The notes under the pieces: generated by a model
Databases searched by the model: none
Seen by the model: the letters and a program-made list of their open reading frames with translations, nothing else
What the model was told of the DNA's origin: nothing
Part shown: positions 13,157 to 62,357 of the stretch, in pieces
Position numbering within the stretch: the stretch's first letter is position 1
Layout: each line of letters starts with the position of its first letter
Made by a program: the position numbers and the translations under genes
Assembly: GCA_022827625.1 (NCBI GenBank)
Contig: JAJEIE010000027.1
Span: 174,827 to 238,826, forward strand
Origin: Candidatus Poribacteria bacterium
GTDB taxonomy: Bacteria > Poribacteria > WGA-4E > WGA-3G
Length of the DNA stretch: 64,000 bases
Direction: 5' to 3'

Positions 13157-13199
13157 TTTAAATTGCTACCTATTTTTTTGAATTTTGATTGGAGACAAT

Positions 13200-14576
13200 A
13201 TGAAAATCTGGATATGTTGCTTGTGTGTAGTCGGTATGTTCGTAAGCACACTGCAGGCGGCAGCGCAGATTCGCCCACCCCGCCGAAGACATAGGATAAT
13301 GGTAGATCCAAGTGCAAAGGAAAAAAAGGACGTACGCAAGGCGGATATAGGTGCGAGTCTCAAAGATATTGCGCAACGGACAACACAGCACGACCAAAAC
13401 CCGAAAGTAGATATTGTGTTCGTTGTTGATGGTAGCAAACGGATGGCGGGACATCTCTTCGACCTTGAGAAAAAGATTGTTGATATGCTCGCTGTTATAG
13501 AGGCAAAAACGATCGACTACAGATTTGGATTGGTGAGTTTCCACGCAGTACAAGGTGAACCGCGTTTGGCACTGCAGCCGTGGACGTTTGACTATCTCAG
13601 TATTACGAAGGCACTCCAGGACATGCAGGTTGAATCCGGAAATAACATTCAATCTGGATATGGGCTTGATGCAGTCGTGAAGGGGCTGAACGACTTGGAA
13701 TTCCGTGATGAAGTCACAACCCAATTTATCGTGGTTACCAACTCGCGCATGCGTACTTCATGGACAGACGCAAAAGCCAAAAACAGGATTAGTGAGCAGA
13801 TTATCAGTCTGTCCCGTCGAAACAACGTTCAACTCAATTTCATCGGTATTAGCGAACGGGTCCAAGCGGAACTCACGGATGAAACGAACGGAAAATGGTA
13901 TCCGATTGACTCGAACCAGCGGCGGATGGATGGACAACGGATTCAGAGTGGCGAGACAATCGCGGATAAAGCCATACTGCGCGTTGATGGCATATTCAAG
14001 CGTATTGCCGAGAACCTCGTCGCAAGTCATCCCGGAAAAGTGGACGTTGTGTTTATCTTTGATTACAGCCTAAGTATGGAAACCAAGACGGAGGCTGCCT
14101 GTGATGGCTTGGATCAGATGGTTTCTGTGTTTAAGTCGGCAGGGTTGGCGTATCGGTTTGGGATGATCCGGTTTTGGGCGGCAGTCGGTGGCGGCGAGAG
14201 TACTATTGTCGTGACCAACCCACCCTTGGAACCGGAGCAGGTGAAATCGCTGTTTCGCCTACCCAAAATGGGGGATGAACATCTGTTAGATGCTGTTATT
14301 GAGGGGATACCGAAACTCCGAACAGATCCAGAACGTCAACTCGTTCTTGTCATTGTCACAGATGAATCAACAAGCAAGCGCACCGAAAAAGGGTATACTG
14401 TCGGACAAGCGATTTCGGTGTGTCGAGGTGCCTTCGCAAGGGTTTATGTTATCGGGGGTGTCACCTCTATGCGAAGCAGCTCCATTTCGGATAATTTCCA
14501 ACGTCAAGTTGCTCAATTAACCAAGGGTGAACATTACATTATGCCGGGTTCTATTATCGCTGACGAGGGACGATAG
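13200..14576 (+). CDS. Secreted protein with two von Willebrand factor A (vWA) domains
   Basis: The RBS and ATG sit at 13200, followed by a signal peptide. The two vWA cores are 'VDIVFVVDGSKRM' and 'VDVVFIFDYSLSM' (DxSxS MIDAS). Confidence 0.65.
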   Translation: MKIWICCLCVVGMFVSTLQAAAQIRPPRRRHRIMVDPSAKEKKDVRKADIGASLKDIAQRTTQHDQNPKVDIVFVVDGSKRMAGHLFDLEKKIVDMLAVIEAKTIDYRFGLVSFHAVQGEPRLALQPWTFDYLSITKALQDMQVESGNNIQSGYGLDAVVKGLNDLEFRDEVTTQFIVVTNSRMRTSWTDAKAKNRISEQIISLSRRNNVQLNFIGISERVQAELTDETNGKWYPIDSNQRRMDGQRIQSGETIADKAILRVDGIFKRIAENLVASHPGKVDVVFIFDYSLSMETKTEAACDGLDQMVSVFKSAGLAYRFGMIRFWAAVGGGESTIVVTNPPLEPEQVKSLFRLPKMGDEHLLDAVIEGIPKLRTDPERQLVLVIVTDESTSKRTEKGYTVGQAISVCRGAFARVYVIGGVTSMRSSSISDNFQRQVAQLTKGEHYIMPGSIIADEGR

Positions 14577-14580
14577 CGTA

Positions 14581-15603
14581 TCACTCCAAAGCCAGTTCAT
14601 CTGCCGTTTTCGCGTGAATAGCGATAAGGACAAAACTGGTTGACTGCAAATTAGCAACCGGTTTTGTTAGTTCTATAGGTGTATTGCTGACGAAGCTCCC
14701 GTCTTCCTGCCGGATACTTGTCAGGTAGTTGATAGAGACACGACGGGTGTTGAGTGGATCGTTTCCAGCGGCGAGTGCCATAACCGCGATGGCGGTAATT
14801 TCGGGATCGCTCGGACTATTTTTATATCTGCCGAATCCGCCGTCATTGTTCTGTAGCTGTTTTAGCCACGCAATTTGCGCGTCGATGTCATAAACGGGTT
14901 CCAAACCTTGTATCACCCAAGATGTGACAAAAATGTCCGACTGTGTGCCGCGCTGCAGTGCCCATCCGCTGTCATAGTTGATACTTTCCGCAAGCCAATC
15001 TGCGCCTTTAGAGACGGGGGCAAAGTTCTGTTTGAAACCCAGCCGTCTGAAACCTGCTAAAACAGCAGCAGTGTAAAGCACATTGTCAGCACTCCGTTCT
15101 TTTCTACCCCAAGCCCCACTCGGATTCTGCGCTTTTTTTAGCCACTGCAGTCCTTTAAAACGGATTTCTGGATCGGTTTCCGCTGTTGCCAAAGCAACAA
15201 GGGCAAAAATGGTATGGGCAGTGTTGTTGTTCCAACTCCCATTATCCCACTGCGTATTCCTGAGATACAGAACGCCTGATCGGATGACCTGCGAGCCTGT
15301 CCCCCATCCGGCATCGATTAACGCCCACATCGCGAACGCCGTGTTCTCGACATTGCTATCTCCACCAGGGACCAGTGGCCAGCCACCATCTCGGTTCTGA
15401 TGCTGCACAATGTAGGCTTTCGCGCTTTCTATGGTTTTATAAAGCGGCGGTTCCTCTGATGCTTGATATGAAGGGAGATCTGTAACAGGAGATGCCTCGC
15501 TATCGGCAAAAGCATCCACTTTAATCCCGATTACGAAATGCAGCAGCATGTAGCAACATATCAATATGTGCATACTTTCATAGTTCTTCATTTTTCGCCC
15601 CAC
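14581..15603 (-). CDS. Secreted prenyltransferase/squalene-oxidase-repeat (alpha/alpha toroid) protein
   Basis: Has a signal peptide and repeated 'QxxDGGW/ DGSW/ SGAWG/ DGGFG' motifs. Confidence 0.6.
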   Translation of the reverse strand: MGRKMKNYESMHILICCYMLLHFVIGIKVDAFADSEASPVTDLPSYQASEEPPLYKTIESAKAYIVQHQNRDGGWPLVPGGDSNVENTAFAMWALIDAGWGTGSQVIRSGVLYLRNTQWDNGSWNNNTAHTIFALVALATAETDPEIRFKGLQWLKKAQNPSGAWGRKERSADNVLYTAAVLAGFRRLGFKQNFAPVSKGADWLAESINYDSGWALQRGTQSDIFVTSWVIQGLEPVYDIDAQIAWLKQLQNNDGGFGRYKNSPSDPEITAIAVMALAAGNDPLNTRRVSINYLTSIRQEDGSFVSNTPIELTKPVANLQSTSFVLIAIHAKTADELALE

Positions 15604-15740: not shown

Positions 15741-16865
15741 CTACAATTGAGGTTCAATCACAACCTTGTAAACGCCTTCTTGTCCGAGCATGTCAATGCC
15801 TTTTTCCAATTGGTATAACGGCAGATGATGCGTTATCAGTTCATCCAACGGGGCGCGTGTTATCTGAAGGAAATCCAACGCCGTCTGGAACTGGATTTGT
15901 GGATATGCCCACACACCGCAGACATCCAAATCCTTGTTACAAATTTGATGCGGACGCACTCGAGTATCCCCAGAGTCTGTATAGTGTCCGACTTCAATAA
16001 CCTTTCCACCCCGTCGCACGACATCTAATGCTTCGGAGAAAACCATCGGCAATCCAGCGCACTCAATCGCGATATCCACTCCGACACCACTTGTCAGGTC
16101 TTGGATCTGTTCAATCCGTTCTTCAGGTGTCGTGTCCCCAACGTTGATAACGACATCTGCCCCCATCTGTTTCGCCATTTCCAAGCGGCTATCGACGAGA
16201 TCCGTGGCGATGATAGTCCCTGCACCGCTATCCCGCAAGACTGCGACAACGAGTAAGCCTATCGGTCCGCATCCGAGAACTGCAACCCGATTTCCGATGC
16301 TGTATCCGTCGCCGACTTGTGGCACTCCCGGCGCACAGGCACGTTCAACGGCGCGCGTCGCTACGGCTACCGGTTCTGTCAACACCTGAATTGCATCAGG
16401 AATGCTTTCCGGCATCTTATAAACCCAAGAATTCCCGTGAATGTAGGTATACTCAGAAAATTCGCCATTCAGATAGGGTGGCGTTTCGCTGTTGCTAAAT
16501 CCATAGATCGTCCGTCCAGAACAGAGCGTCGGGCGACCTGGGACGTGTAGGCAGTAGTAACATCGACCACAGTTTTTTGATCCCGGCACAACGGTTACGC
16601 GATCCCCCGCTTTAATGGGACCGCCTATCACGTTCATAGCCTGATTCGCATCTTTACCAATCTCTGCTACCGTACCCACAACCTCGTGTCCAGGGATGAC
16701 CGGAAATTTCAGGGCGGTATGCCCAAGATACATGTGTTTATCACTCCCACAGATGCCGACTCTATCGACTTGTAACAGGAGTGCATCGTCTGCAGGTGTC
16801 GGTTTCTCAAATTCGCGGATTTCTATCTGCCCAGGTTCGAGCATCACTGCCGCTTGAACTTGCAT
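15741..16865 (-). CDS. Zinc-dependent alcohol dehydrogenase (MDR family, threonine/sorbitol dehydrogenase-like)
   Basis: Has 'GICGSDKHMY', 'GHEVVGTV', a structural-Zn Cys cluster 'CGRCYYCLHVPGRPTLC', and 'LGCGPIGLL'. Confidence 0.85.
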   Translation of the reverse strand: MQVQAAVMLEPGQIEIREFEKPTPADDALLLQVDRVGICGSDKHMYLGHTALKFPVIPGHEVVGTVAEIGKDANQAMNVIGGPIKAGDRVTVVPGSKNCGRCYYCLHVPGRPTLCSGRTIYGFSNSETPPYLNGEFSEYTYIHGNSWVYKMPESIPDAIQVLTEPVAVATRAVERACAPGVPQVGDGYSIGNRVAVLGCGPIGLLVVAVLRDSGAGTIIATDLVDSRLEMAKQMGADVVINVGDTTPEERIEQIQDLTSGVGVDIAIECAGLPMVFSEALDVVRRGGKVIEVGHYTDSGDTRVRPHQICNKDLDVCGVWAYPQIQFQTALDFLQITRAPLDELITHHLPLYQLEKGIDMLGQEGVYKVVIEPQL

Positions 16866-16917: not shown

Positions 16918-18075
16918 CTATTGTGACCAGAGAGGGATCAATATTTTTGTGAGTTCTGCGAGGCTTTCCAAATTGTGTGCTGGCAGAAAATAATCGACAT
17001 ACGGCAACGCCGTGCGGATACCTCGACAGATCGGTTGATAGCCGTCGCTGCCGAGCAACGGATTGAGCCAAATCAACCGATAGGCGTGCCGATGCAACAT
17101 CTCCATTGAATAACGCAGCACCTCTACATCGCCACGATCCCAACCGTCGCTGATGAGGATGACCACCGTGCGATACGCCGAGAAAGAGGGCGCGAACTGC
17201 CGATAGAATTCCAACAGACTTTCACCAATTTTTGTGCCACCCGACCAGTCCGGCACAACATCTGCCACTTCATTCAAACCCTCTGCTAACCCTTTCCGAC
17301 GGAGGAGTCCCGTAATGTCCGTCAGATGCGTGCTGAAAACCGCAACCTCCACTTCCTTTAGTTCTTTCTGCATGCCGTATATGAATTGAATAAGAAATTT
17401 AGCGTAGCAGTCCATTGACCCGCTGACATCGCAGAGGAGCAGGATCTTCGTCTTCTTGATTTTTTGTTGTTTCCGAATTAATTCGAGCGGTTCACCGCCG
17501 TGCGAGAGACTCTTTCGCCAACTCCGCCGGAAGTCTATAATTTTACCTTTTTTCCCGACAACCTTTCGACGGCTCAGTCTTGTCGCCAGGATTGCCGCTA
17601 ATTTCGCAACGATTTCCCGTGCTTTCTCCATATCCTCTGTCGTGAACTCGCTAAAATCCTTTCGACTCAGAACTTCTTCTACGCTATAAGCCGTTGAATC
17701 GTCTTCTTCGCCTTCCGCGTTTTCTTCTGTTTCGGAGTCCAACCACTGTTCGAGTATATCCTGTTCGTCGCCTGTATCGGAGAGGTCTTGGAGACTCGAC
17801 GGTTCAGATGTTTCGTTTTCTGAGTCAACGGCTTCAAATTCCGTGCGCGGGTATCGCCAAAACAGATTGAAGGCGAGATCAAATGTTTCCCGGTCAGTGT
17901 CTTGAGAGATAAGATTTGTCCGCGCCGTATGATAAAACGCGTCCCGATCACCGATATCTATGAGTTCAACGCTTTGGCACCAACTGAGTTGATTGGTGGT
18001 CGTTACATTGACACCCATCTGTCGGAGCAAGGCGCAGAAATCTGTGATTTGTTGGAGTAGAGTTTGTTCAGTCAT
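16918..18075 (-). CDS. CoxE-family vWA domain protein
   Basis: Has 'LLLCDVSGSMD', 'ILISDGWDRGD', 'LIWLNPLLG' and an acidic linker. It overlaps the upstream protease gene by 8 nt. Confidence 0.7.
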   Translation of the reverse strand: MTEQTLLQQITDFCALLRQMGVNVTTTNQLSWCQSVELIDIGDRDAFYHTARTNLISQDTDRETFDLAFNLFWRYPRTEFEAVDSENETSEPSSLQDLSDTGDEQDILEQWLDSETEENAEGEEDDSTAYSVEEVLSRKDFSEFTTEDMEKAREIVAKLAAILATRLSRRKVVGKKGKIIDFRRSWRKSLSHGGEPLELIRKQQKIKKTKILLLCDVSGSMDCYAKFLIQFIYGMQKELKEVEVAVFSTHLTDITGLLRRKGLAEGLNEVADVVPDWSGGTKIGESLLEFYRQFAPSFSAYRTVVILISDGWDRGDVEVLRYSMEMLHRHAYRLIWLNPLLGSDGYQPICRGIRTALPYVDYFLPAHNLESLAELTKILIPLWSQ

Positions 18076-18442
18076 TTGTCAAATTTTCAATTGTTACCGT
18101 GCCCTCTGTTACAATATCTAATATCAGACGATTTCCATAGAGCAGGGACATACCTATCAACGGTTTGCCATCTGTCCGTAGTGTCTGCACGATGCGTTTT
18201 TCGTCTCGCCATACGACCACCGCGAGATACATATCTAAGTCTACTTGGCTTCCATCACCGAGAATTATACGGAGTTCACCAACTCGCGGAAGTCCGAGAA
18301 TCTCAATCAAATCGCCCGGTAGCATTAACTCCCCTGTGAAGCCGGTATCAACGACCACTTCAATTTTCTGTGGATGCGCTACACCAGTTACTTCCAATTC
18401 AATAGTAGCTTCTTGATTATTAACAATTTTTCCTGTGATCAT
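18068..18442 (-). CDS. Retropepsin-like (clan AA) aspartic protease, single domain
   Basis: Has an active-site motif 'VVDTGFTGEL' and is the size of a retroviral-type protease monomer. Confidence 0.65.
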   Translation of the reverse strand: MITGKIVNNQEATIELEVTGVAHPQKIEVVVDTGFTGELMLPGDLIEILGLPRVGELRIILGDGSQVDLDMYLAVVVWRDEKRIVQTLRTDGKPLIGMSLLYGNRLILDIVTEGTVTIENLTND

Positions 18443-18451
18443 TTTAGGGGT

Positions 18452-19036
18452 TTAGGGTCTCCATTTGTTTACAGGAGTTCCATAGGTGCCCCTAAAGCCG
18501 AGTTGATATGCTGTCTGTTGCCCAATTCGTACAAGGTAAATTACGGCATTCGGATGTTTTGAAAGAAGGCGGTTTATGGCTGCTGTGCCTTGAGTATCAA
18601 TTTCATAATTTTCTGTCTCAATGTCAATTGCCAAGAATTTTCCGTTGTGGCGAGGCTCAACTTTGCTCTGAAGTTTTTGGTATGCTGCTTCGCCGCGAGT
18701 GCTAACGGTTCCGGAGGGATAGTCCGTGAGGACCGAAAGCCTAAAACCCAGTGGATTCGCGAGACGACATCCGATTCGCGTACAGTAAATCACGGAATTG
18801 GGATGCTTCGCACGGAGTCGAGATGCAGCAACAAAGTCCTTATCGTCAATTTCATAATCACCCGTGTCAATATCAACCACCCAAAATTTTCCGTTATGAT
18901 ATGGTTCAACTTTGCTCCGCTGTTGCTGATATATTGCATCGCCACGGGCAACGATGGTTTCAGGTGTATAATCTGAGTATGGCATTAGGATGCTCCCAAA
19001 GTTTCGGAGTTTATTTTTTTTGCCTAATTTGTTCAA
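18452..19036 (-). CDS. Hypothetical protein made of two tandem copies of an approximately 85-aa domain
   Basis: The internal repeats are 'VEPYHNGKFWVVDIDTGDYEIDDKD...HPNSVIYCTRIG' and 'VEPRHNGKFLAIDIETENYEIDTQG...HPNAVIYLVRIG'. Confidence 0.5.
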   Translation of the reverse strand: MNKLGKKNKLRNFGSILMPYSDYTPETIVARGDAIYQQQRSKVEPYHNGKFWVVDIDTGDYEIDDKDFVAASRLRAKHPNSVIYCTRIGCRLANPLGFRLSVLTDYPSGTVSTRGEAAYQKLQSKVEPRHNGKFLAIDIETENYEIDTQGTAAINRLLSKHPNAVIYLVRIGQQTAYQLGFRGTYGTPVNKWRP

Positions 19037-19044
19037 GTCCTTTC

Positions 19045-19974
19045 CTATTTTTCTAAGTAAGCGATGAACGCATCCAATTCTGATGAGACGTTGTCGAATA
19101 CCGCGCGGACCCGTTTTGCGTTTTCTACCGTTTCTTTGAGGGACAGTTCAAAATGATAGACATGCTCAAACCTGTAGCGGAATTTTAAAAACGGTACCAG
19201 ATCTATAACACTTTTCTGAGAAATCAGAGGCGGACGCAATGGTCTCGCTTCTGCTATTTGTGCTAATAGATCTTTATGTGTGCCTCGCCCCCTCATGACA
19301 TCCATATCAATTTGTCGTGCGATACGCCGGAAAATGCTTTCCAACCGAGCATAGAAACGAAAAAGGTATAAGTCAAGTGTGGTTTTGCAAGCATCCTTGT
19401 ATTTGGTAGGTGCTGTGTCCATTTTTAGCAAAGTTTGTGTGATTTTTCTGACGATCTGTTCTATATCTGCGAGATTTGCGGTGATATGTTGACGGAATTT
19501 CCGCTTATGTGCTTCAGCGGTTAATTTGCTTCTCATCACAAAGTCAGACCGCCAGTGAAAATTCGCTTCCCCATTTTGAATGGGAATGGCTTGCCCCTGA
19601 ATCTGTTCGCGAAATCGTCCTTTCGCGCTATGAAAGTTGATGAGATCAATTTTGAACTCTCGGCTAAAGCCAACAGTTTCCCCTATGGCGCGAAAATACT
19701 TCTCGGATGGGATACCCCAGACAGCAATATCAATATCTGACCCTTTGGAGAACCAATCCCGCCCTGCGAGCGACCCGAACACAGCGACCTGCGTTGCGTC
19801 AAAATCTTCGTAAAGCATGACAGCAACTTGATATGCTGTTTTCCAAGCGCGTCGTAGCAGTGCTTCATCCACTTTCCGATTCTGGAAGTGCTGATCAAGT
19901 CGGCAGCGGTATTCCGCTAATTCTTCAGGCGATAAATCTTTTGCTGTGCGCTGAGTTTCTGAGGATTGAGGCAT
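19045..19974 (-). CDS. Fused minimal nucleotidyltransferase (MNT) + HEPN domain protein (single-chain HepT/MntA-like)
   Basis: N-terminal 'VAVFGSLAGRDWFSKGSDIDIAVW' is the GS...DxD nucleotidyltransferase motif. C-terminal 'FRYRFEHVY' resembles the HEPN Rx4HxY motif. Confidence 0.65.
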   Translation of the reverse strand: MPQSSETQRTAKDLSPEELAEYRCRLDQHFQNRKVDEALLRRAWKTAYQVAVMLYEDFDATQVAVFGSLAGRDWFSKGSDIDIAVWGIPSEKYFRAIGETVGFSREFKIDLINFHSAKGRFREQIQGQAIPIQNGEANFHWRSDFVMRSKLTAEAHKRKFRQHITANLADIEQIVRKITQTLLKMDTAPTKYKDACKTTLDLYLFRFYARLESIFRRIARQIDMDVMRGRGTHKDLLAQIAEARPLRPPLISQKSVIDLVPFLKFRYRFEHVYHFELSLKETVENAKRVRAVFDNVSSELDAFIAYLEK

Positions 19975-20129: not shown

Positions 20130-21980
20130 TCAAAATCGCTTACCGGAGTCTACCACAGTAGAGAGATATAATGTTATTTGTTGTTTCTCAACATTAATAT
20201 CGGAGATGATTGTCTCAATTTCATCACCTTCCATCAGAGACTCTGGCGGAGACATCCGAATAAGACCGTTAATGCCCGGTTCAATCTCAACAAAAACACC
20301 GAAAGTGGTTACGTTTATGATGGGACCTGTAATCTTCGTGCCAACTGGATACTTTTGTTCCAGAAGTTTCCATGGATTTTGCTGCAAATATTTGTAACCT
20401 AACGAGATACGTTTGTCACTTTTTGAAACTTCAAGCACTACGGCGTTGATTTCATCATCTTGATTGAAGTTTGATGGAATTATGCCGTTTGGTTGCCACG
20501 ATAGCTCCGACTTATGAATCATTCCTGTAATACCTTCTTCAAGGTTAAGAAATACTCCATAATCTGTGATGCTGGTAACAATACCTGACACTACTGAACC
20601 AATTGGATATTTATCTTCAACATCACTGTCTTCCCACGGATTGGGCTTTAGCCTCAAATCAATACGCGTTTTCCCTTTTTCTGTTTCTTGATCTATATTG
20701 ATAATTTTGACTCTAACCTCGTCACCAATCGAAACTATATCCTCCGGCCTATTTATGAGTTTCCATGTCAATTCAGGGATACGGATTAATCCCTCAACCC
20801 CACCAAGATCTACAAATGCTCCAAAACGAGCGGTGCTTTTCACTTTTCCATTTACCCATTGTCCAACTTTAAGCCTGCTAAAAGCCTCTGATAGTTCTTG
20901 TGTAGGTTCGAATTTGGGTTGTTTATCGGACGTATCAGCAGTTTTTCTCTCGTCACTAGGTTCCGGAAAAGATCCTACCACTATGTTAGACATATCAGCG
21001 AGTTGTTCCTCGGCAATGATCTTCTCAGTTTCTATTATCGCTAACCGTTTTTCGCTTGCCACTAGTTGTTCCTCGAGCATGGTTACCTTTGTCTGTGCTG
21101 TCTCTAATTCATTTGACATCACCTCAAGGCGTTCCTCTCTGTTATCATAGGAAAGTTCATCGAGAATAGTTTTAACTTCATGTTTTTCATCTGACGCGTT
21201 GATTTTGTCGAGTACGTCAGATATATGAAATAACAGCTTTAGAGTAGTGTCACGTTTTGTGTCTTTTGTCCCTGGATGTGCCCAGTGAATTCTACCATCT
21301 TTTATCACTTCTGCTTCATTCCAGATTGCTTTTCTATTGTTAAATTTCTTAGAAAAGAAAGCGTTAGATTCCCAATATTTTCTGATAAAAGCTGGGAAAT
21401 TTTGAATATCTATTGCAGCTTCAATTTCGTTGTGGATCTCACGGGCAAGCTTTAGATCGTCAGGTGCCACTTCTTTAATTAAATCCTCTAGGGATCTGTT
21501 GTGATTCTTCTCCAGCGATTCAATGATGAATCTGCGCATAGCATCACGGTATATAGTGTATGCCTTATAAATTGCATCTCGGTTAGGATATTTTGTAGTA
21601 ATCATATTTAAAACCTCCATGTAGGCAAAGTTTTTATTGAAATGTTCTCTATTGAGTTTGGGTTTTCTGAGAATGGTTGATTGATCATTGACTATATTTT
21701 CGTTATTCATAATTTCCTCCGTTGCTAAGCTAAGAAGTATCTCAAGTGTTGTATGCAAAGCATCCGCGATGCTTTGCATCTGAAATATATCAGGAATCGC
21801 ATCACCTTTTTCAAACATAGCGATCCGCTGTTGCGTCACGCCAATTTCTTTCCCAAGTTCTGCTTGTGTCATACGCAACTGACGCCGCCGCTTTTTAATG
21901 TTCGATGCGACGTCCTCTATTTTTTTTTCGCTGACAATTTCTTTTGTTCTTGGCATTTGATTCCTTATTAATGTCCACAA
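20130..21980 (-). CDS. XRE-family HTH + helical (possible HEPN-like, 'RIHWAH') + coiled-coil + three S1 RNA-binding domains; unusual architecture
   Basis: N-terminal 'LRMTQAELGKEIGVTQQRIAMFEKG' is an HTH. Three S1-like units follow: 'GQWVNGKVKSTARFGAFVDLGG', 'GSVVSGIVTSITDYGVFLNL' and 'GTKITGPIINVTTFGVFVEI'. The gene is AT-rich relative to the flanking genes. Confidence 0.6.
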   Translation of the reverse strand: MWTLIRNQMPRTKEIVSEKKIEDVASNIKKRRRQLRMTQAELGKEIGVTQQRIAMFEKGDAIPDIFQMQSIADALHTTLEILLSLATEEIMNNENIVNDQSTILRKPKLNREHFNKNFAYMEVLNMITTKYPNRDAIYKAYTIYRDAMRRFIIESLEKNHNRSLEDLIKEVAPDDLKLAREIHNEIEAAIDIQNFPAFIRKYWESNAFFSKKFNNRKAIWNEAEVIKDGRIHWAHPGTKDTKRDTTLKLLFHISDVLDKINASDEKHEVKTILDELSYDNREERLEVMSNELETAQTKVTMLEEQLVASEKRLAIIETEKIIAEEQLADMSNIVVGSFPEPSDERKTADTSDKQPKFEPTQELSEAFSRLKVGQWVNGKVKSTARFGAFVDLGGVEGLIRIPELTWKLINRPEDIVSIGDEVRVKIINIDQETEKGKTRIDLRLKPNPWEDSDVEDKYPIGSVVSGIVTSITDYGVFLNLEEGITGMIHKSELSWQPNGIIPSNFNQDDEINAVVLEVSKSDKRISLGYKYLQQNPWKLLEQKYPVGTKITGPIINVTTFGVFVEIEPGINGLIRMSPPESLMEGDEIETIISDINVEKQQITLYLSTVVDSGKRF

Positions 21981-22288: not shown

Positions 22289-22591
22289 TCATAGGGTAGA
22301 TAGCAACACTTTTTCAACCGCAATAGGCAGTTGGAGAGGATAAAAACGGCTAACTGTATATGCGTAATCTTTGCCGCTTTCATCTATAACGCGAATATAG
22401 CCGTGGGTCGTTGCTTCATCATCAGGAACGACACGATACACTTTCCCAACCTCAAGAGAGGCTGGATGTCCTTTGTTGTTAAGGCACAGGCCAAATTGAG
22501 GGAATTGGTTGTTTTTTGTGTCCATCTTTATGCTACTGCCGCGACTGATTGTTTCGATCTGCTTGATTTCTCCGATAATTTCAAAATCCAC
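22289..22591 (-). CDS. Small hypothetical protein (possibly SH3-like beta)
   Basis: A 100-aa ORF with the motif 'KVYRVVPDDEATTHGYIRVIDESGKDYAYTVSRF'. No family is assigned. Confidence 0.4.
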   Translation of the reverse strand: MDFEIIGEIKQIETISRGSSIKMDTKNNQFPQFGLCLNNKGHPASLEVGKVYRVVPDDEATTHGYIRVIDESGKDYAYTVSRFYPLQLPIAVEKVLLSTL

Positions 22592-23191: not shown

Positions 23192-23428
23192 ATGAAAGCA
23201 TTTGAATGTGAATATTGCAGTGGCGAGATTCGCCAAAAGAAAGTTACCGTCGATCATTGGTATGAAGGCAAGTTGGTAATTATTAAAGATGTTCCCGTAG
23301 GGGTCTGCCAAGAGTGCGGTCAGCGATATTATGCAGCTGCAACACTGGATAGACTTGATATAATGGCACAGAATAGTGATGCTGCGCCGGAAAGAATGTC
23401 CGCCCCTGTCATGGTGATGGGGCCGTAA
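23192..23428 (+). CDS. YgiT/MqsA-type zinc-ribbon protein (antitoxin-like N-domain only)
   Basis: Has 'CEYCSGE...' and 'VCQECGQRYY', a CxxC...CxxC spacing characteristic of the YgiT-type zinc finger. Confidence 0.55.
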   Translation: MKAFECEYCSGEIRQKKVTVDHWYEGKLVIIKDVPVGVCQECGQRYYAAATLDRLDIMAQNSDAAPERMSAPVMVMGP

Positions 23429-23456: not shown

Positions 23457-25388
23457 TTAGGGCCAGAAGTTATACATCGGTTGCTGTGTCACAACACTGA
23501 TAAGGCTCCAGACACCACCTACCGTAAAATCACCTAACATCAAACCGATCGCAAACATCACCAACTGCTGCGAGGCACGGGGTCCTCCAATCTTCAGGAC
23601 GCTCCACTTGATAATCGAACTCACCAACATACAGCTCCACAGATACCGCATACCCCAATCGCTGGAGACAACGAACCCAATCGGATGGAACGGCCACCAG
23701 AAGAAACGCGCCCGCATAAACATCAAGAGGGTCGAAAAGAGCAAGCCAAACACAATGCCGCCAGTGGCATAGAAATTCGGCTCTGTCGGGTAATAGAGCC
23801 AGCCTTGGAGTCCGTTAAAGACACGTCCACCGAACCCTGTTGACCAACCGCTGCCCCCGCTCATATTCAACGCGCCATAAGTATAGAAGATATAAGCGAT
23901 AACCGCGAATACCATCACGGCGGCAAATGCTGAAACGCCTAATAGTGCGAAGAACAGTCGCCTCGGTGCGATGCCGGAACGTTCCGAGAGTTTGAAACCT
24001 TCTAACTGATGTGGCATCGGGTTGCTTGTGTAACTCCGATTGAACCACCGGTAGAGCGTCAAGGCAACGAGGTTGTTCGTCCCTAACATCCGTGTCCCGA
24101 AACCGTCAACGAGGATGTGATGGTTCGGCATATTTTCCATTGCATGCACTGGAAACCCTTGTTCCGCACGCATCCGTGTCAGCACCAAAACAATGATGAA
24201 ATAGATTGTGAAGAACAGCGGAATTAGCCAAAATGACATGCCGAGCCGTCTCGAAAAAATAAAGAGTATTGCCAATCCGCCGATGATGCCCCACAGCGCG
24301 TATCTATATGGAATCGGTTCGTCAGCGTCTTCGCCTGTGCCGCGACGCGCGATGCGGAGCACCCCACGAAAATGGCGTAGGTTCAGTACTAATACAGAGA
24401 TGAAAATCCCGATCGCCGCACCGAAGCACTGTCGATTGATGTATGGAAAACCGGGTAGGCTCGACAGGCCGACCGCACTCGTCATTACCAACTGCGCTTT
24501 GTAGAAGAAAAAGAAGAACCAACTGGAGAACGAAAGGTCTAACGGCATCAGGAGTCCAAGTCCGATGACGAATGGGTAATAGGACATACTGATACCCCCA
24601 ATAGCGTTCCACGGCTTTTCTGTGAACAGATGCCCGAACCCGCGCCAACCCCCGATCCGCTTGATGGGTAAGGTGGGAAGTGTCGGATACAAGAAACTGA
24701 GGCCATTGAGGATGGCTATAGACGCTGCAATTCCGAAACCGAGCCAGGTGATGCGGTGTGAGAACAGTGATTTTGTGTTATGCGTAACGTGAAAGGCGAT
24801 CTGCGTGATTGGATAGGCGAGGCGTTCGCGTTCGACCCACTGTTTCCGTAGAATGACGTTAATACACAACATCACGAGGACCAGAACCGTCATGAATCCC
24901 GCCCAGGAGAGCGTTGGCACTAACCATGCACCGAGAATCTCCATCGTGGAGAGGTTAGATTCACCTCTATAGTACCCCACCAAGACCTTCGGATCGTCTA
25001 CGAGGAGCCATCTCGGAAGATGGTCCCAGAACAGCTGCTTCCATTCATTTTCGGGAGTTGCGAACCAGAAAGCGTGCCCGACAGTTGTGACGAGGATCGT
25101 CATCAGCGTGATGGACGGGAAAGCGCACGCTGTGCTAAGTAAGATGTATATCGTGAGGAGTTCGGCGTCGGTGAATAAACGCCGACGAGCGGTGAAATTG
25201 AGGAGGGTAAAGGCAAATACGACGAAAACGACGTTGTAGAAGGGGACCGCGTACGTGTTCAGCGCGTAACCCACGAGTCCGACTTCGCCCGCGATGATCC
25301 AATAGAAATTAAACGGAATCAGCACGAGTGTAATGGCGATAGATTTCCATGTGACACCGTGTGATTTTGGGCGTTTATCTTCTCTCAT
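23457..25388 (-). CDS. Large polytopic integral membrane protein of unknown function (at least 12 predicted TM segments)
   Basis: Hydrophobic segments run throughout the 643 aa. Its start overlaps the stop of the upstream MNT-HEPN gene by 14 nt, indicating an operon. Confidence 0.6.
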   Translation of the reverse strand: MREDKRPKSHGVTWKSIAITLVLIPFNFYWIIAGEVGLVGYALNTYAVPFYNVVFVVFAFTLLNFTARRRLFTDAELLTIYILLSTACAFPSITLMTILVTTVGHAFWFATPENEWKQLFWDHLPRWLLVDDPKVLVGYYRGESNLSTMEILGAWLVPTLSWAGFMTVLVLVMLCINVILRKQWVERERLAYPITQIAFHVTHNTKSLFSHRITWLGFGIAASIAILNGLSFLYPTLPTLPIKRIGGWRGFGHLFTEKPWNAIGGISMSYYPFVIGLGLLMPLDLSFSSWFFFFFYKAQLVMTSAVGLSSLPGFPYINRQCFGAAIGIFISVLVLNLRHFRGVLRIARRGTGEDADEPIPYRYALWGIIGGLAILFIFSRRLGMSFWLIPLFFTIYFIIVLVLTRMRAEQGFPVHAMENMPNHHILVDGFGTRMLGTNNLVALTLYRWFNRSYTSNPMPHQLEGFKLSERSGIAPRRLFFALLGVSAFAAVMVFAVIAYIFYTYGALNMSGGSGWSTGFGGRVFNGLQGWLYYPTEPNFYATGGIVFGLLFSTLLMFMRARFFWWPFHPIGFVVSSDWGMRYLWSCMLVSSIIKWSVLKIGGPRASQQLVMFAIGLMLGDFTVGGVWSLISVVTQQPMYNFWP

Positions 25389-26319
25389 CTGACTCGTGGG
25401 TTTCGGCTAAAAAAGCGATAAACGTGTCTAATTCTTCAGAAACCGCTGTGAATAGTTCCGTGATTGACTTCGCATGTTCTTTGGCTTTTTCGTAAATCAA
25501 TTCAGTGCCATAGATGTTGTTAACCTTATGACGGAACCTGAGAAGTTGCCTTAATCTCTGCTGGGTCCCTTCGGAAATGACAGGTGGACGTTCTGGGCGA
25601 CCGTCTGTCATTTGTGCCAGCAAATCGGTATGCCACCGCTCACCCTGAGGCAAGTATTTATCAATTTCATTAGCAATCCGCTCGAAGATTCTTTCTATGC
25701 CGCTGTAGACCTCAGCGAGTTTTTTGGCAGTTAACTCTTCAAAAAATTTTCTGTGGTGAGGCGTGGCTACTTCAATTTCTTGCAAGAGTTCCATGATGCT
25801 TCCAATAGTCCGGTCTATTTTTGTACGTTCATCAGCGATACGTTGAATAAGTTCGTCACGATTCACTGTGTAAGCTTCTCCGTTTTCTATACCCGATGCG
25901 TTCACTAATGTGAGAATGTCCGTCCTCGCTTTATCAATAAGGATAGCTTGGCTTAGAATCCGCTCACGGAATAAACTGTTAATGGATTTAAAATTGATAA
26001 TATCTATCTTAAACTCAGAACTCAAGCCTTTTGTCTCCCAGAGCGCGTCCAGGCATTTGTTATATGAGACCCCCCAAACAACGATATCAATGTCTGAGTT
26101 TTGGGTGAACCGTTTCGGTTCAGTGAGGGATCCGAAGACGGCAACTTTCGTGGCGCCAAAGTCTCGATAAAGTACAGTGGCGAGACGACGCGCCGTCTTC
26201 CATGCGCGTTGGAGCAGCTCTTTATCGACCTGACGGTTTTCCCATTGGCGTTTGAGGTTTTCTCTGCATTTCGCGAGTTCTGATGGAGACATTCCACTCG
26301 TCGTGGTTTCGCGACGCAT
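25375..26319 (-). CDS. Fused nucleotidyltransferase + HEPN protein, a paralog of 19045-19974
   Basis: Has 'VAVFGSLTEPKRFTQNSDIDIVVW' and a C-terminal 'LRQLLRFRHKVNNIY'. The N-terminal 'LLQRAWKTA' is alignable with the paralog's 'LLRRAWKTA'. Confidence 0.65.
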   Translation of the reverse strand: MRRETTTSGMSPSELAKCRENLKRQWENRQVDKELLQRAWKTARRLATVLYRDFGATKVAVFGSLTEPKRFTQNSDIDIVVWGVSYNKCLDALWETKGLSSEFKIDIINFKSINSLFRERILSQAILIDKARTDILTLVNASGIENGEAYTVNRDELIQRIADERTKIDRTIGSIMELLQEIEVATPHHRKFFEELTAKKLAEVYSGIERIFERIANEIDKYLPQGERWHTDLLAQMTDGRPERPPVISEGTQQRLRQLLRFRHKVNNIYGTELIYEKAKEHAKSITELFTAVSEELDTFIAFLAETHESDERR

Positions 26320-61189: not shown

Positions 61190-61820
61190 TAGAGTTAACT
61201 CCTTAAATTTAAGTTATCAAAATACACCCGTTGAAATCGGGTGTGCTAAAAACTTTCGGTGCTTCCCCTATATGTTTGCAAGAATGCACCCGAGGGAAAG
61301 TTAGCTTCCGTATTGTTGTTGATTGTACAATTCAACAGGGATGTTGGAAGCCTACGGTTGTATTCTCGTTCAGTCGAGTAACGTAGGGCTATTTCGTTGT
61401 CGCCCCTTACGGAGTCCGCAAAGAACGAACCGACACGTTGAGAATAGAATTTCGCGAGGACGGCTTGCCAATCGAAACACTATTGGCGAAACACCATTGG
61501 AATGCCGTACATTTCGCCCGAAAGTCAATATCTAAACGAGTACCTTAGAGTTTAACAAAAATTATAAACTCTGTAAAGGTAAAAATACCGGTTTTTTGGG
61601 AATTATACAAAAGTTGCTTTCTTTTGTCAAGAAAAAAACTTATTTTTTGGTAAATTTACCATAAATTTAAACGTTGTCAAGAAAAAAAATGATACACGTC
61701 GTTATGCGGAATCGAATTTAAGGACATTGTTCGATGTATTAAGTATACTATAAAGCGAAAAAAAATGCAAGTTTTTTTAGTAGCGGTTAGCAATCAGAGC
61801 GTTCCGCTGCGCTCCACTCT

Positions 61821-61853
61821 CAGCAGTCAGCAGCCAGCAGTCAGCAGTCAGCG
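61821..61853 (+). repeat. Heptamer microsatellite (CAGCAGT/C)x4.5 immediately 3' of the four-helix-bundle gene
   Basis: The sequence reads cagcagtcagcagccagcagtcagcagtcagcg. Its inverted partner lies at 62296-62318. Confidence 0.7.
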
Positions 61854-61854
61854 A

Positions 61855-62214
61855 TTAGACCTTCGTTCTGATATTTTTTAACAAGGCGGTTAGCATCTTC
61901 TTTATGCTGATGATTTCGTTAATTAATTCAACATATTGATCAGAATTAAGATATTTGAGATCGCGCGCAAGGAGAACGAGATATTCTGTTTCACTTGCGG
62001 AACCGACTGCGATCTGAAGAAAACGCGCGAAGTCCGCAGGAGTTTCTCTCCCGCAACCTTCAGCAATGTTTGTCGGAATTGAAGCACAGGCGCGCCGAGT
62101 TTGGCTTGTTAATCCATATATCTCTTCACGCGGAAATGGAACTGTTAGTTCGTATATCTTCAAAGTGAGTTCATGAGCTCTTTCCCAAACTTGTAATCTT
62201 CTGAAGTTTCGCAT
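61855..62214 (-). CDS. Four-helix-bundle protein (TIGR02436 / 23S rRNA intervening-sequence protein family; Avd-like fold)
   Basis: An RBS 'aaggag' sits 7 nt before the ATG at 62214. The sequence 'MRNFRRLQVWERAHELTLKIYELTVPFPREEIYGLTSQTRRACASIPTNIAEGCGR' matches the family signature. Confidence 0.75.
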   Translation of the reverse strand: MRNFRRLQVWERAHELTLKIYELTVPFPREEIYGLTSQTRRACASIPTNIAEGCGRETPADFARFLQIAVGSASETEYLVLLARDLKYLNSDQYVELINEIISIKKMLTALLKNIRTKV

Positions 62215-62295
62215 ATTTACTCCTTTTTTTATTATGGTAAAGTTTAGAATTACGTGGACATTGGCGAGGTTAGGGAACCTTGTTTGCATAATAGT

Positions 62296-62318
62296 TGACT
62301 TCTGACTGCTGACTGCTG
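62296..62318 (+). repeat. Inverted copy of the heptamer repeat (TGACTTCTGACTGCTGACTGCTG), followed by an 8-bp hairpin GGTTTTTC-gta-GAAAAACC
   Basis: It is the reverse complement of the CAGCAGT units found 3' of the gene. Confidence 0.7.
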
Positions 62319-62357
62319 AAAGGTTTTTCGTAGAAAAACCGCCCTGACTGCTAATTG

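What the first reader, a model, noticed from the sequence alone, without database searches (positions are those of the whole stretch)
16918..19036. Operon of a tandem-domain protein, a retropepsin-like aspartic protease and a CoxE-type vWA protein with no MoxR ATPase partner
Three co-directional genes overlap, with the protease stop overlapping the vWA start. CoxE-family vWA proteins normally partner with a MoxR/CoxD AAA+ ATPase. Here the neighbours are instead a free-standing clan-AA protease (DTG) and a protein made of two copies of an uncharacterised roughly 85-aa domain. A vWA-plus-protease arrangement resembles effector-chaperone conflict systems but is not a described combination.
Basis: inference. 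Interest (0 to 1): 0.5.

Follow-up and report, generated by a model that had tools for sequence, protein, structure and literature searches.

The report
Protease pair beside unrelated vWA gene
The three genes are not one system: a small mobile two-gene cassette (a retrovirus-type protease plus its own small partner protein, here duplicated head to tail) sits in a toxin-antitoxin hotspot just upstream of a conserved core vWA gene of a sponge-symbiont (Poribacteria) genome, and the cassette itself is a widespread, unstudied pair that behaves like a toxin-antitoxin module.

Summary
The gene calls are right. On the minus strand lie a two-domain protein (real start 18985), a 124-aa retropepsin-like protease (TIGR03698, DTG) and a CoxE-type vWA protein. 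No MoxR lies in the window or about 7-8 kb beyond either end.

The three genes are not a unit. All 80 Poribacteria species examined keep the vWA (64-98% identity). Only 10 have the protease upstream, 10 keep only the small-protein gene, and 60 have neither. The closest relative (vWA 98%) lacks the cassette. The most divergent of the 80 species by vWA identity keeps the canonical MobA-MoxR-vWA order, so MoxR was displaced from this site.

The conserved unit is two genes. In 80 of 80 unrelated metagenome loci, and on Nostoc PCC 7120 plasmid alpha, the protease follows a single ~90-aa homologue of the repeated domain. In 58 of 68 pairs the genes overlap by 4 nt (ATGA). None has a vWA or any conserved neighbour.

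The small domain has no Pfam or NCBIfam model, yet it has 3,273 clusters. One natural fusion joins two small domains to the protease. The protease decays repeatedly while the partner stays intact, and the reverse is never seen. Several copies sit in toxin-antitoxin islands.

Best reading: a toxin-antitoxin-like protease and neutraliser pair. This rests on genomic evidence only.

The parts
18452..18985 (-). Partner protein of the protease, 177 aa. It consists of two tandem copies of a ~85-90-aa domain (copy 1 about 18746..18985, copy 2 about 18455..18745). Each copy is a long helix followed by strand-strand-helix-strand and a conserved tail motif LGFR. It is the presumed neutraliser (antitoxin-like) of the protease.
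   Evidence: The halves are 51% identical and align with the single-domain ORFs that precede homologous proteases elsewhere. Structure model. Start codon and ribosome-binding site. No Pfam, NCBIfam, PHROG or PADLOC model, and no PDB sequence match. The family has 3,273 clusters at 50% identity.
18068..18442 (-). Cytoplasmic retropepsin-like (clan AA) aspartic protease, 124 aa, with the active-site motif VVDTGF and the motif LIGMSLL. It is the presumed toxic or effector component of the two-gene module.
   Evidence: TIGR03698 at 57.8 bits. D32, G34 and F35 are invariant in 46 homologues. The AF2 model (pLDDT 92.4) matches retroviral proteases and APRc. A small-domain ORF lies directly upstream in 80 of 80 metagenome loci.
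16918..18075 (-). CoxE-type vWA protein, 385 aa, with an intact MIDAS motif (DVSGS ... T ... D). It is a core Poribacteria gene and is not part of the protease module.
   Evidence: PF05762, E 1.9e-56. Present at 64-98% identity in 80 of 80 Poribacteria species, 60 of which lack the cassette. MoxR is adjacent only in L086. Plasmid homologues lie in MoxR-vWA-XdhC clusters.
15741..16865 (-). Zn-dependent alcohol dehydrogenase, the conserved downstream neighbour of the vWA. Listed as context.
   Evidence: Pfam ADH_N and ADH_zinc_N. Follows the vWA in 79 of 80 Poribacteria loci.
19045..19974 (-). Fused MNT (Pol-beta nucleotidyltransferase) and HepT-like protein. It is one copy of the variable array of toxin-antitoxin-type genes that marks the hotspot upstream of the vWA. 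Listed as context.
   Evidence: PF18765 plus PF20797. There are 1-5 diverged copies upstream of the vWA in most species. A second copy lies in the window at 25375..26319.

Best explanation
Two independent units lie side by side.

**Unit 1 (18068..18985).** This is a self-contained, horizontally mobile two-gene module.
- A small cytoplasmic retropepsin-like aspartic protease would act as a homodimer, as all retropepsins do. This step is inferred.
- It is made together with a small partner protein encoded just upstream. The typical arrangement is a 4-nt ATGA overlap, which implies translational coupling.
- I propose that the partner binds and neutralises the protease, perhaps by placing its conserved extended tail (..AY.LG[FG]R) in or near the substrate cleft. 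The pair would then behave like a type II toxin-antitoxin (addiction) module. This step is inferred.
- In this lineage the partner gene has been duplicated and fused. One chain therefore supplies two partner domains per protease dimer. This step is inferred.

**Unit 2 (16918..18075).** This is a vertically inherited CoxE-type vWA protein.
- Its ancestral upstream neighbours (a MobA-like gene and MoxR) have been replaced at this site by a fast-turnover array of toxin-antitoxin cassettes (MNT-HepT fusions and the protease pair).
- The 8-nt protease/vWA overlap is a recent deletion of the spacer, not a sign of shared function.

**Confidence.** That the triad is two units, and that the conserved unit is the two-gene pair: about 0.9. 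That the pair works as a neutraliser and toxic protease: about 0.45.
For: **Shown**
1. All 80 Poribacteria species have the vWA, and 79 have vWA-ADH. Only 10 have the protease, 10 have only the partner gene, and 60 have neither. The nearest relative (vWA 98%, ADH 99% identical) lacks the cassette. In L094 an MNT-HepT gene separates the cassette from the vWA.
2. The protease at 40-57% identity sits in unrelated contexts and is always directly preceded by an ~88-91-aa homologue of the repeated domain. The contexts are a restriction-modification/AAA_15 island, a site between frdA and frdB, and a site next to an S8 peptidase.
3. In 80 of 80 metagenome loci the partner gene lies upstream. In 58 of 68 pairs there is a 4-nt overlap. 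There is no vWA, and no flanking gene family is shared by more than 3 loci.
4. The same pair lies on the conjugative plasmid alpha of Nostoc PCC 7120 and on a Tolypothrix plasmid.
5. P0323 is a natural fusion of two partner domains and the protease.
6. Decay is asymmetric. At least 7 different deletion or disruption endpoints remove the protease while the partner ORF stays full-length. The cases are L001, L003/L048/L090, L029, L038/L045, L055, L073, L074 and L083, plus the pseudogenes in L124 and L165. No intact protease lacks a partner.
7. Neighbours are toxin-antitoxin genes in L174 (BrnT, HigB/HigA) and L138 (DUF5615, DUF2442), and in the window itself (MNT-HepT).
8. The catalytic Asp is invariant.
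9. L086 keeps MobA-like, MoxR and vWA in order. Plasmid homologues are MoxR-vWA-XdhC.

**From established knowledge**
- Retropepsins are obligate homodimers with one catalytic Asp per subunit.
- In type II toxin-antitoxin modules the antitoxin is usually encoded first and translationally coupled. Orphan antitoxins are tolerated, whereas orphan toxins are not.
Against: - No experiment shows toxicity, binding or inhibition.
- The partner protein has no recognisable DNA-binding domain, and most type II antitoxins have one.
- PADLOC and PHROGs give no hit. Only 1 of 2.9 million viral contigs carries a relative.
- The fusion protein and the multi-domain forms fit a pro-domain or polyprotein reading equally well.
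- The metagenome survey was seeded with the protease, so the frequency of orphan partner genes outside Poribacteria is unknown.
- The cassette could be ancestral at this Poribacteria site and merely lost repeatedly, rather than mobile there.
- In this window the protease stop overlaps the vWA start, so co-translation here cannot be excluded.
Confidence: 0.55

Rival explanations
1. Processing or zymogen model. The small protein is not an inhibitor kept for addiction. It is the protease's dedicated substrate or detachable pro-domain. The protease cuts at the conserved tail or linker (LGFR) and releases single domains from the tandem, triple or fused forms, much as a retroviral protease processes a Gag-Pro polyprotein.
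For: P0323 fuses two small domains directly to the N-terminus of the protease. Forms with two and three domains exist (25 and 1 of the best 150). The inter-domain linker of the tandem protein keeps the same LGFR motif as the C-terminal tail, and both are predicted disordered. Gene order and coupling are strict.
Against: Fusions are rare (1-2 of 150). The partner gene persists intact after the protease is deleted in at least 10 species, which is odd for a mere substrate or pro-domain. The location in toxin-antitoxin islands and the patchy distribution suggest a selfish module.
Confidence: 0.25
2. The tandem protein, the protease and the vWA form one three-gene conflict or chaperone-effector system that works without MoxR.
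For: The genes are co-directional. There is an 8-nt protease/vWA overlap in this window. The same order is seen in about 10 Poribacteria species. No MoxR lies within the window or its extensions.
Against: 60 of 80 species have the vWA without the pair. The pair never sits near a vWA elsewhere: 0 of 80 loci, plus the plasmids. The overlap is lineage-specific, since other species have a spacer of roughly 60-70 nt. In L094 another gene lies between them. The ancestral partner of the vWA is MoxR.
Confidence: 0.04
3. Housekeeping model. The pair is an ordinary regulatory protease with an adaptor or specificity factor, comparable to RimB with RimA/RimK. It is not selfish and not toxic.
For: Other bacterial retropepsin-like proteases (RimB, RloA) have regulatory roles within operons (PMC11957791 and PMC12239564, found). 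The catalytic residues are conserved.
Against: No conserved neighbour or pathway context exists. One copy is inserted inside the frd operon. Copies lie on plasmids and in toxin-antitoxin islands. Presence varies between near-identical genomes. The protease is lost repeatedly.
Confidence: 0.12

Closest known systems
Type II toxin-antitoxin modules, for example HigB/HigA and BrnT/BrnA, which flank the pair in locus L174
   Same: Two small, co-directional, translationally coupled genes, with the presumed neutraliser first. Patchy and mobile distribution. Location in toxin-antitoxin islands and on plasmids. The presumed toxin decays while the partner stays intact.
   Different: The presumed toxin is a clan AA aspartic protease, which is not a described toxin class as far as my searches show. 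The partner has no known DNA-binding fold. Neither toxicity nor neutralisation has been tested.
Retropepsins (HIV-1, HTLV-1 and FIV proteases) and the Rickettsia retropepsin-like protease APRc (PDB 5c9b)
   Same: Single-lobe fold of about 120 aa, a D-T-G active site, and a G-M/R-x-hydrophobic motif near the C-terminus. Foldseek probability 1.0.
   Different: Free-standing cytoplasmic protein. It is not part of a polyprotein (apart from the rare fusion P0323) and is not membrane-anchored as APRc is. The motif is DTGF, not DTGA. It has a dedicated small partner gene.
RimB and RloA, bacterial retropepsin-like proteases (PMC11957791, PMC12239564)
   Same: Bacterial single-lobe aspartic proteases encoded in small operons with partner proteins.
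   Different: A different family: no Pfam hit at all was found here. The partners differ (RimA/RimK, or RloB/RloC). Those are conserved chromosomal operons rather than a mobile cassette.
CoxD-CoxE-CoxF of Afipia (Oligotropha) carboxidovorans plasmid pHCG3
   Same: The window vWA is 34% identical to CoxE over residues 52-379 and matches PF05762. The MIDAS motif is intact.
   Different: There is no adjacent MoxR (CoxD), no XdhC (CoxF) and no Mo-hydroxylase genes. The neighbours are a Zn-dependent alcohol dehydrogenase and toxin-antitoxin cassettes.
Pfam DUF5678 (PF18929)
   Same: The strand-strand-helix-strand core of the small domain resembles it. The best BFVD structural match is a Pandoravirus DUF5678 protein (E 5.9e-3, target TM 0.60). 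One family member scores 20.4 bits against the model.
   Different: It falls below the Pfam threshold (23.2 bits), and 0 of 121 members scanned match. An extra N-terminal helix and a conserved tail are present. DUF5678 itself has no known function.

Membership tests
TIGR03698 clan AA (retropepsin-like) aspartic protease | Profile score above the curated cut-off | tested here: met
   57.8 bits against a cut-off of 57.35, so only just above. Homologues are named 'clan AA aspartic protease' by NCBI and JGI.
TIGR03698 clan AA (retropepsin-like) aspartic protease | Catalytic D-T/S-G motif and retropepsin fold | tested here: met
   VVDTGF is present, and D32, G34 and F35 are invariant in 46 sequences. 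The AF2 model (pLDDT 92.4) matches HTLV, HIV and APRc proteases.
TIGR03698 clan AA (retropepsin-like) aspartic protease | Homodimerisation and proteolytic activity | not testable with these tools
   Needs biochemistry or a multimer structure prediction.
CoxE-type vWA (PF05762) as part of a MoxR-vWA maturation system | VWA_CoxE profile match and an intact MIDAS motif | tested here: met
   191 bits, E 1.9e-56. DVSGS, a later T and D are present in the translation.
CoxE-type vWA (PF05762) as part of a MoxR-vWA maturation system | Adjacent MoxR/CoxD AAA+ ATPase | tested here: not met
   tblastn with four MoxR proteins finds none in the window, none in its extensions of about 7 kb and 8 kb, and none in 79 of 80 Poribacteria loci (+-10 kb). 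It is present only in L086. An unlinked copy elsewhere in the genome could not be searched for.
CoxE-type vWA (PF05762) as part of a MoxR-vWA maturation system | Adjacent XdhC/CoxF and molybdenum hydroxylase genes | tested here: not met
   No tblastn hit for XdhC or CoxL in the window or in the Poribacteria loci. They are present in the three plasmid examples.
Type II toxin-antitoxin module | Two small co-directional genes, translationally coupled, with the neutraliser upstream | tested here: met
   80 of 80 loci have the partner upstream on the same strand. In 62 of 68 pairs the genes overlap, 58 of them by 4 nt. In the window the gap is 9 nt.
Type II toxin-antitoxin module | Mobile, patchy distribution in variable islands and on plasmids | tested here: met
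Type II toxin-antitoxin module | The toxin is never without its antitoxin, while the antitoxin can be orphaned | tested here: met
   No intact protease lacks a partner gene. At least 10 species, plus L001 and L003, have an intact partner with a deleted or disrupted protease.
Type II toxin-antitoxin module | The toxin arrests growth, and the antitoxin binds and neutralises it | not testable with these tools
   No experiment or complex prediction was available.
Type II toxin-antitoxin module | The antitoxin carries a DNA-binding domain for autoregulation | tested here: inconclusive
Pfam DUF5678 | Score above the gathering threshold | tested here: not met
   0 of 121 members match. One fusion protein scores 20.4 bits against the 23.2-bit threshold. 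The structural resemblance is only weak.
Known anti-phage defence systems (PADLOC) | Profile match of any of the three proteins | tested here: not met
   No hit for the tandem protein, the protease or the vWA.

The most novel reading that the evidence does not exclude
The pair is the founding example of a toxin-antitoxin family whose toxin is a retropepsin-like aspartic protease. Its antitoxin is a previously unmodelled domain of about 90 aa, distantly DUF5678-like. The partner family has over 3,000 clusters at 50% identity. Members are spread across Poribacteria, Acidobacteria and cyanobacteria, and they occur on plasmids of the model organism Nostoc PCC 7120. The tandem and triple partner forms and the fused form would reflect matching of partner domains to the two-fold symmetric protease dimer.
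Probability: 0.4. Interest if true: 0.65.

Novelty: new variant of a known kind. Interest (0 to 1): 0.4.

Why it matters
The proposed vWA-protease 'conflict system' does not exist as a unit, so it should not be carried forward. What remains is useful in three ways.

1. A strictly conserved and very widespread gene pair has no Pfam or NCBIfam model for one partner. I could find no literature on it. If the protease is a toxin held in check by its partner, it would add a new enzymatic class (aspartic proteases) to toxin-antitoxin biology. It would also give a function to thousands of 'hypothetical protein' and 'clan AA aspartic protease' annotations.
2. The pair can be tested directly in Nostoc PCC 7120 or in E. 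coli.
3. In most Poribacteria the CoxE-type vWA has lost its MoxR neighbour to a toxin-antitoxin hotspot yet stays highly conserved. This is a modest puzzle about whether such vWA proteins can work with an unlinked ATPase or with none.

Tried and rejected
- **MoxR regex.** A screen for Walker A plus DE[IVLFMA]NR found nothing. It was too narrow: the L086 MoxR has DEVDR. I replaced it with tblastn using real MoxR/CoxD sequences.
- **AlphaFold database fold search.** Not available on the machine.
- **Promoter and terminator scan.** Counts over 15.6-22.2 kb were no higher than in shuffled sequence, so they say nothing about operon structure.
- **Phage origin.** Only 1 weak relative in IMG/VR, so this is rejected.
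- **Literature.** No paper links TIGR03698, retropepsin-like proteases or DUF5678 with antitoxins. No paper mentions CoxE in Poribacteria.
- **Extending the window.** Two look-ups with edge genes failed because the exact product was not on record. Two others worked.
Full report
**What is in the window**

The minus strand carries three consecutive ORFs:
- 18452..19036, a protein with two repeated domains.
- 18068..18442, 124 aa.
- 16918..18075, 385 aa.

Pfam assigns the last to VWA_CoxE (E 1.9e-56). It finds nothing for the other two. NCBIfam places the 124-aa protein in TIGR03698, 'clan AA aspartic protease', just above its cut-off at 57.8 bits against 57.35.

The AlphaFold model of the protease is confident (pLDDT 92.4). 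Its best PDB matches are the HTLV-1, HIV-1 and FIV proteases, Rickettsia APRc and Ddi1. The catalytic Asp of VVDTGF is invariant in 46 homologues.

The two halves of the first protein are 51% identical. Each half folds as a long helix followed by strand-strand-helix-strand.

The sequence itself gives four details:
- The tandem gene starts at ATG 18985, with GGGAG 7 nt upstream. All homologues begin MPYSDYT.
- A 9-nt gap separates it from the protease gene.
- The protease stop overlaps the vWA start by 8 nt.
- The protease has no hydrophobic N-terminus, so it is cytoplasmic.

**The organism and the vWA**

Source names attached to homologues identify the organism as Candidatus Poribacteria, a sponge symbiont.

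A scan of one genome per species returned 80 Poribacteria loci carrying the vWA at 64-98% identity. In 79 of them it is followed by the same Zn-dependent alcohol dehydrogenase, and in all 80 a prenyltransferase-like gene lies downstream. The vWA is therefore a conserved core gene.

What lies directly upstream varies:
- Usually there are one to five diverged copies of a fused MNT-HepT gene, ending 4-7 nt before the vWA ATG.
- Only 10 species have the protease there.
- 10 species have only the small-protein gene.
- 60 species have neither.

The closest species (L015; vWA 98%, ADH 99% identical) has no cassette. In L094 an MNT-HepT gene separates the cassette from the vWA. In the other species with an intact protease, a spacer of roughly 60-70 nt precedes the vWA ATG. 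The 8-nt overlap seen here is therefore a recent microdeletion.

**MoxR**

Plasmid-borne homologues of this vWA (29-36% identity) all sit in MoxR-vWA-XdhC clusters next to molybdenum hydroxylases. One of them is the reference coxD-coxE-coxF cluster of Afipia carboxidovorans pHCG3.

I used those MoxR proteins as tblastn queries against 1.78 Mb of sequence, comprising the window and 94 loci. The only hit was in L086, the species with the most divergent vWA. There a MobA-like gene, a MoxR (AAA_5) and the vWA are adjacent.

Using the L086 MoxR as a query gave no further hit. Same-species contigs (99% identical) that extend the window by about 7 kb and about 8 kb hold no MoxR, XdhC, MobA or CoxL either.

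The ancestral arrangement was nevertheless canonical, and MoxR has been displaced from this site. I could not test whether an unlinked copy exists.

**The real conserved unit**

Protease homologues at 44-57% identity lie in quite different places:
- a restriction-modification/AAA_15/transposase island (L006);
- between frdA and frdB of a fumarate reductase operon (L007);
- next to a GFO oxidoreductase and an S8 peptidase (L011).

Each is immediately preceded by an 88-89-aa ORF. That ORF aligns with both halves of the window protein.

A metagenome scan with the protease profile returned 80 loci:
- All 80 proteases with enough upstream sequence have exactly one such ORF directly upstream on the same strand.
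- In 58 of 68 pairs where the start could be placed, the genes overlap by 4 nt.
- No vWA (phmmer, E<=1) was found in the 368 kb of these loci. No MoxR-like ORF was seen either, though only with the narrow motif regex.
- No flanking gene family is shared by more than 3 loci.

The same pair, annotated 'hypothetical protein' and 'clan AA aspartic protease', lies on the conjugative plasmid alpha of Nostoc sp. PCC 7120 and on a Tolypothrix plasmid.

A profile of the single domain finds 3,273 clusters at 50% identity (1,274 at E<=1e-10). Of the best 150, 123 have one domain, 25 have two and one has three. One protein, P0323, is a natural fusion of two small domains and the protease.

The domain has no Pfam, NCBIfam, PHROG or PADLOC model, no PDB sequence match, and no significant PDB fold match. 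Two weak clues point to DUF5678, itself uncharacterised: a sub-threshold Pfam hit and the best BFVD structural match.

**How it probably works**

The pair has the genomic signature of a toxin-antitoxin-like module:
- Two small, coupled genes with the smaller one first.
- No fixed neighbours.
- Presence or absence differs between near-identical genomes.
- Copies occur on plasmids.
- One copy is inserted inside an operon.
- Neighbours include BrnT, HigB/HigA, DUF5615 and DUF2442, and MNT-HepT in this window.

The most telling observation is asymmetric decay. In Poribacteria the protease has been deleted or disrupted with at least seven different endpoints:
- Only the first 4 or about 21 codons are left (L029; L038 and L045).
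- Only the last 20 codons are left (L055).
- The gene is removed exactly from its ATG to the vWA ATG (L003, L048, L090).
- The DTG region is lost (L001).

In every such case the partner ORF remains full-length. In L124 and L165 the protease match is split over two adjacent ORFs (an apparent frameshift or internal stop), again with a partner gene directly upstream. No intact protease lacks a partner.

I therefore propose that the partner binds and neutralises a potentially harmful cytoplasmic protease. Retropepsins act as homodimers (established knowledge). A tandem partner would then supply two domains per dimer (inference).

The conserved, disordered tail and linker motif LGFR could occupy the substrate cleft (inference). 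It could equally be a cleavage site. That is the main rival: a substrate or pro-domain model, supported by the fusion and the multi-domain forms.

**Comparison with known systems, and novelty**

The protease passes the sequence and fold tests for retropepsin-like clan AA proteases. It belongs to a different family from the studied bacterial examples RimB, RloA and APRc.

The vWA passes the CoxE profile and MIDAS tests. It fails the tests for a linked MoxR and a linked XdhC.

The pair meets the genomic criteria of a type II toxin-antitoxin module. The functional criteria are untested, and the partner lacks a recognisable DNA-binding domain.

I found no paper describing this pair. One survey notes retropepsin-domain proteins of about 100 aa next to type III-D CRISPR loci in Sulfolobales (PMC3973734).

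**Verdict**

The triad is a chance neighbourhood created by a cassette hotspot. The underlying two-gene module is real, widespread and uncharacterised, and it is best classed as a new variant of a known kind.

Noticed in passing
window 19045..19974 (-) and 25375..26319 (-); loci L015-L094 upstream of the vWA: Fused MNT (Pol-beta nucleotidyltransferase) plus HepT-like_2 genes form arrays of 1-5 diverged tandem copies (about 40-55% identical) directly upstream of the vWA in most Poribacteria species. Their stop codon lies 4-7 nt before the vWA ATG. This is a fast-turnover toxin-antitoxin hotspot.
   Followed up: partly
L080 8983-9099 and L081 8981-9067: A duplicated fragment of the first 30-39 codons of the vWA lies between two MNT-HepT copies. 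It is a footprint showing that the array grows by tandem duplication that includes the 5' end of the vWA.
   Followed up: no
L086 8372-11179: The Poribacteria species with the most divergent vWA (64% identity) keeps a MobA-like NTP transferase, a MoxR (AAA_5) and VWA_CoxE adjacent, and it lacks the alcohol dehydrogenase. All 79 other species lack MoxR within +-10 kb.
   Followed up: yes
window 20130..21980 (-): A 616-aa protein combines an N-terminal HTH_3, a weak Swt1-like HEPN match and three S1 RNA-binding domains. PADLOC gives RmrA-like HTH hits. This is an unusual architecture in the same variable island.
   Followed up: no
window 23192..23428 (+) and 22289..22591 (-): A 78-aa protein has a weak MqsA-antitoxin (zinc-ribbon) match. 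A 100-aa ORF with no family match lies nearby. They may be further toxin-antitoxin remnants.
   Followed up: no
L007-L010 (about 4735-5387 in L007): A copy of the small-protein/protease pair is inserted between frdA and frdB of a fumarate reductase operon. Its protease has DRG in place of DTG.
   Followed up: partly
L175 2732-3381 (Nostoc sp. PCC 7120 plasmid alpha, NC_003276.1 280759-281408): The same pair (WP_044523651.1 plus WP_010999818.1, 4-nt overlap) lies on a conjugative plasmid of a genetically tractable model cyanobacterium. tblastn reports a second match elsewhere on the same plasmid.
   Followed up: partly
L177 3492-4008 (Azospirillum lipoferum plasmid AZO_p3): A DUF4160/DUF2442 toxin-antitoxin-like pair is inserted between the xanthine-dehydrogenase-family subunit genes and MoxR-vWA-XdhC. 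This is another case of a small cassette lodged inside a CoxD/CoxE-type cluster.
   Followed up: no
window 13185..14576 (+) and 14581..15603 (-): A second vWA protein, which has a hydrophobic, signal-peptide-like N-terminus, and a prenyltransferase/squalene-cyclase-like (alpha-macroglobulin TED-like) protein are conserved next to the vWA-ADH pair in all Poribacteria loci.
   Followed up: no
L181 8990-9349: A near-identical (99%) same-species contig carries an extra 119-aa gene (23S_rRNA_IVP / bAvd-like) between the DprA and CopC-like genes. Over the corresponding stretch of the window (about 61190-62357) the ORF list (150 aa or longer) shows nothing; shorter ORFs there were not examined.
   Followed up: no
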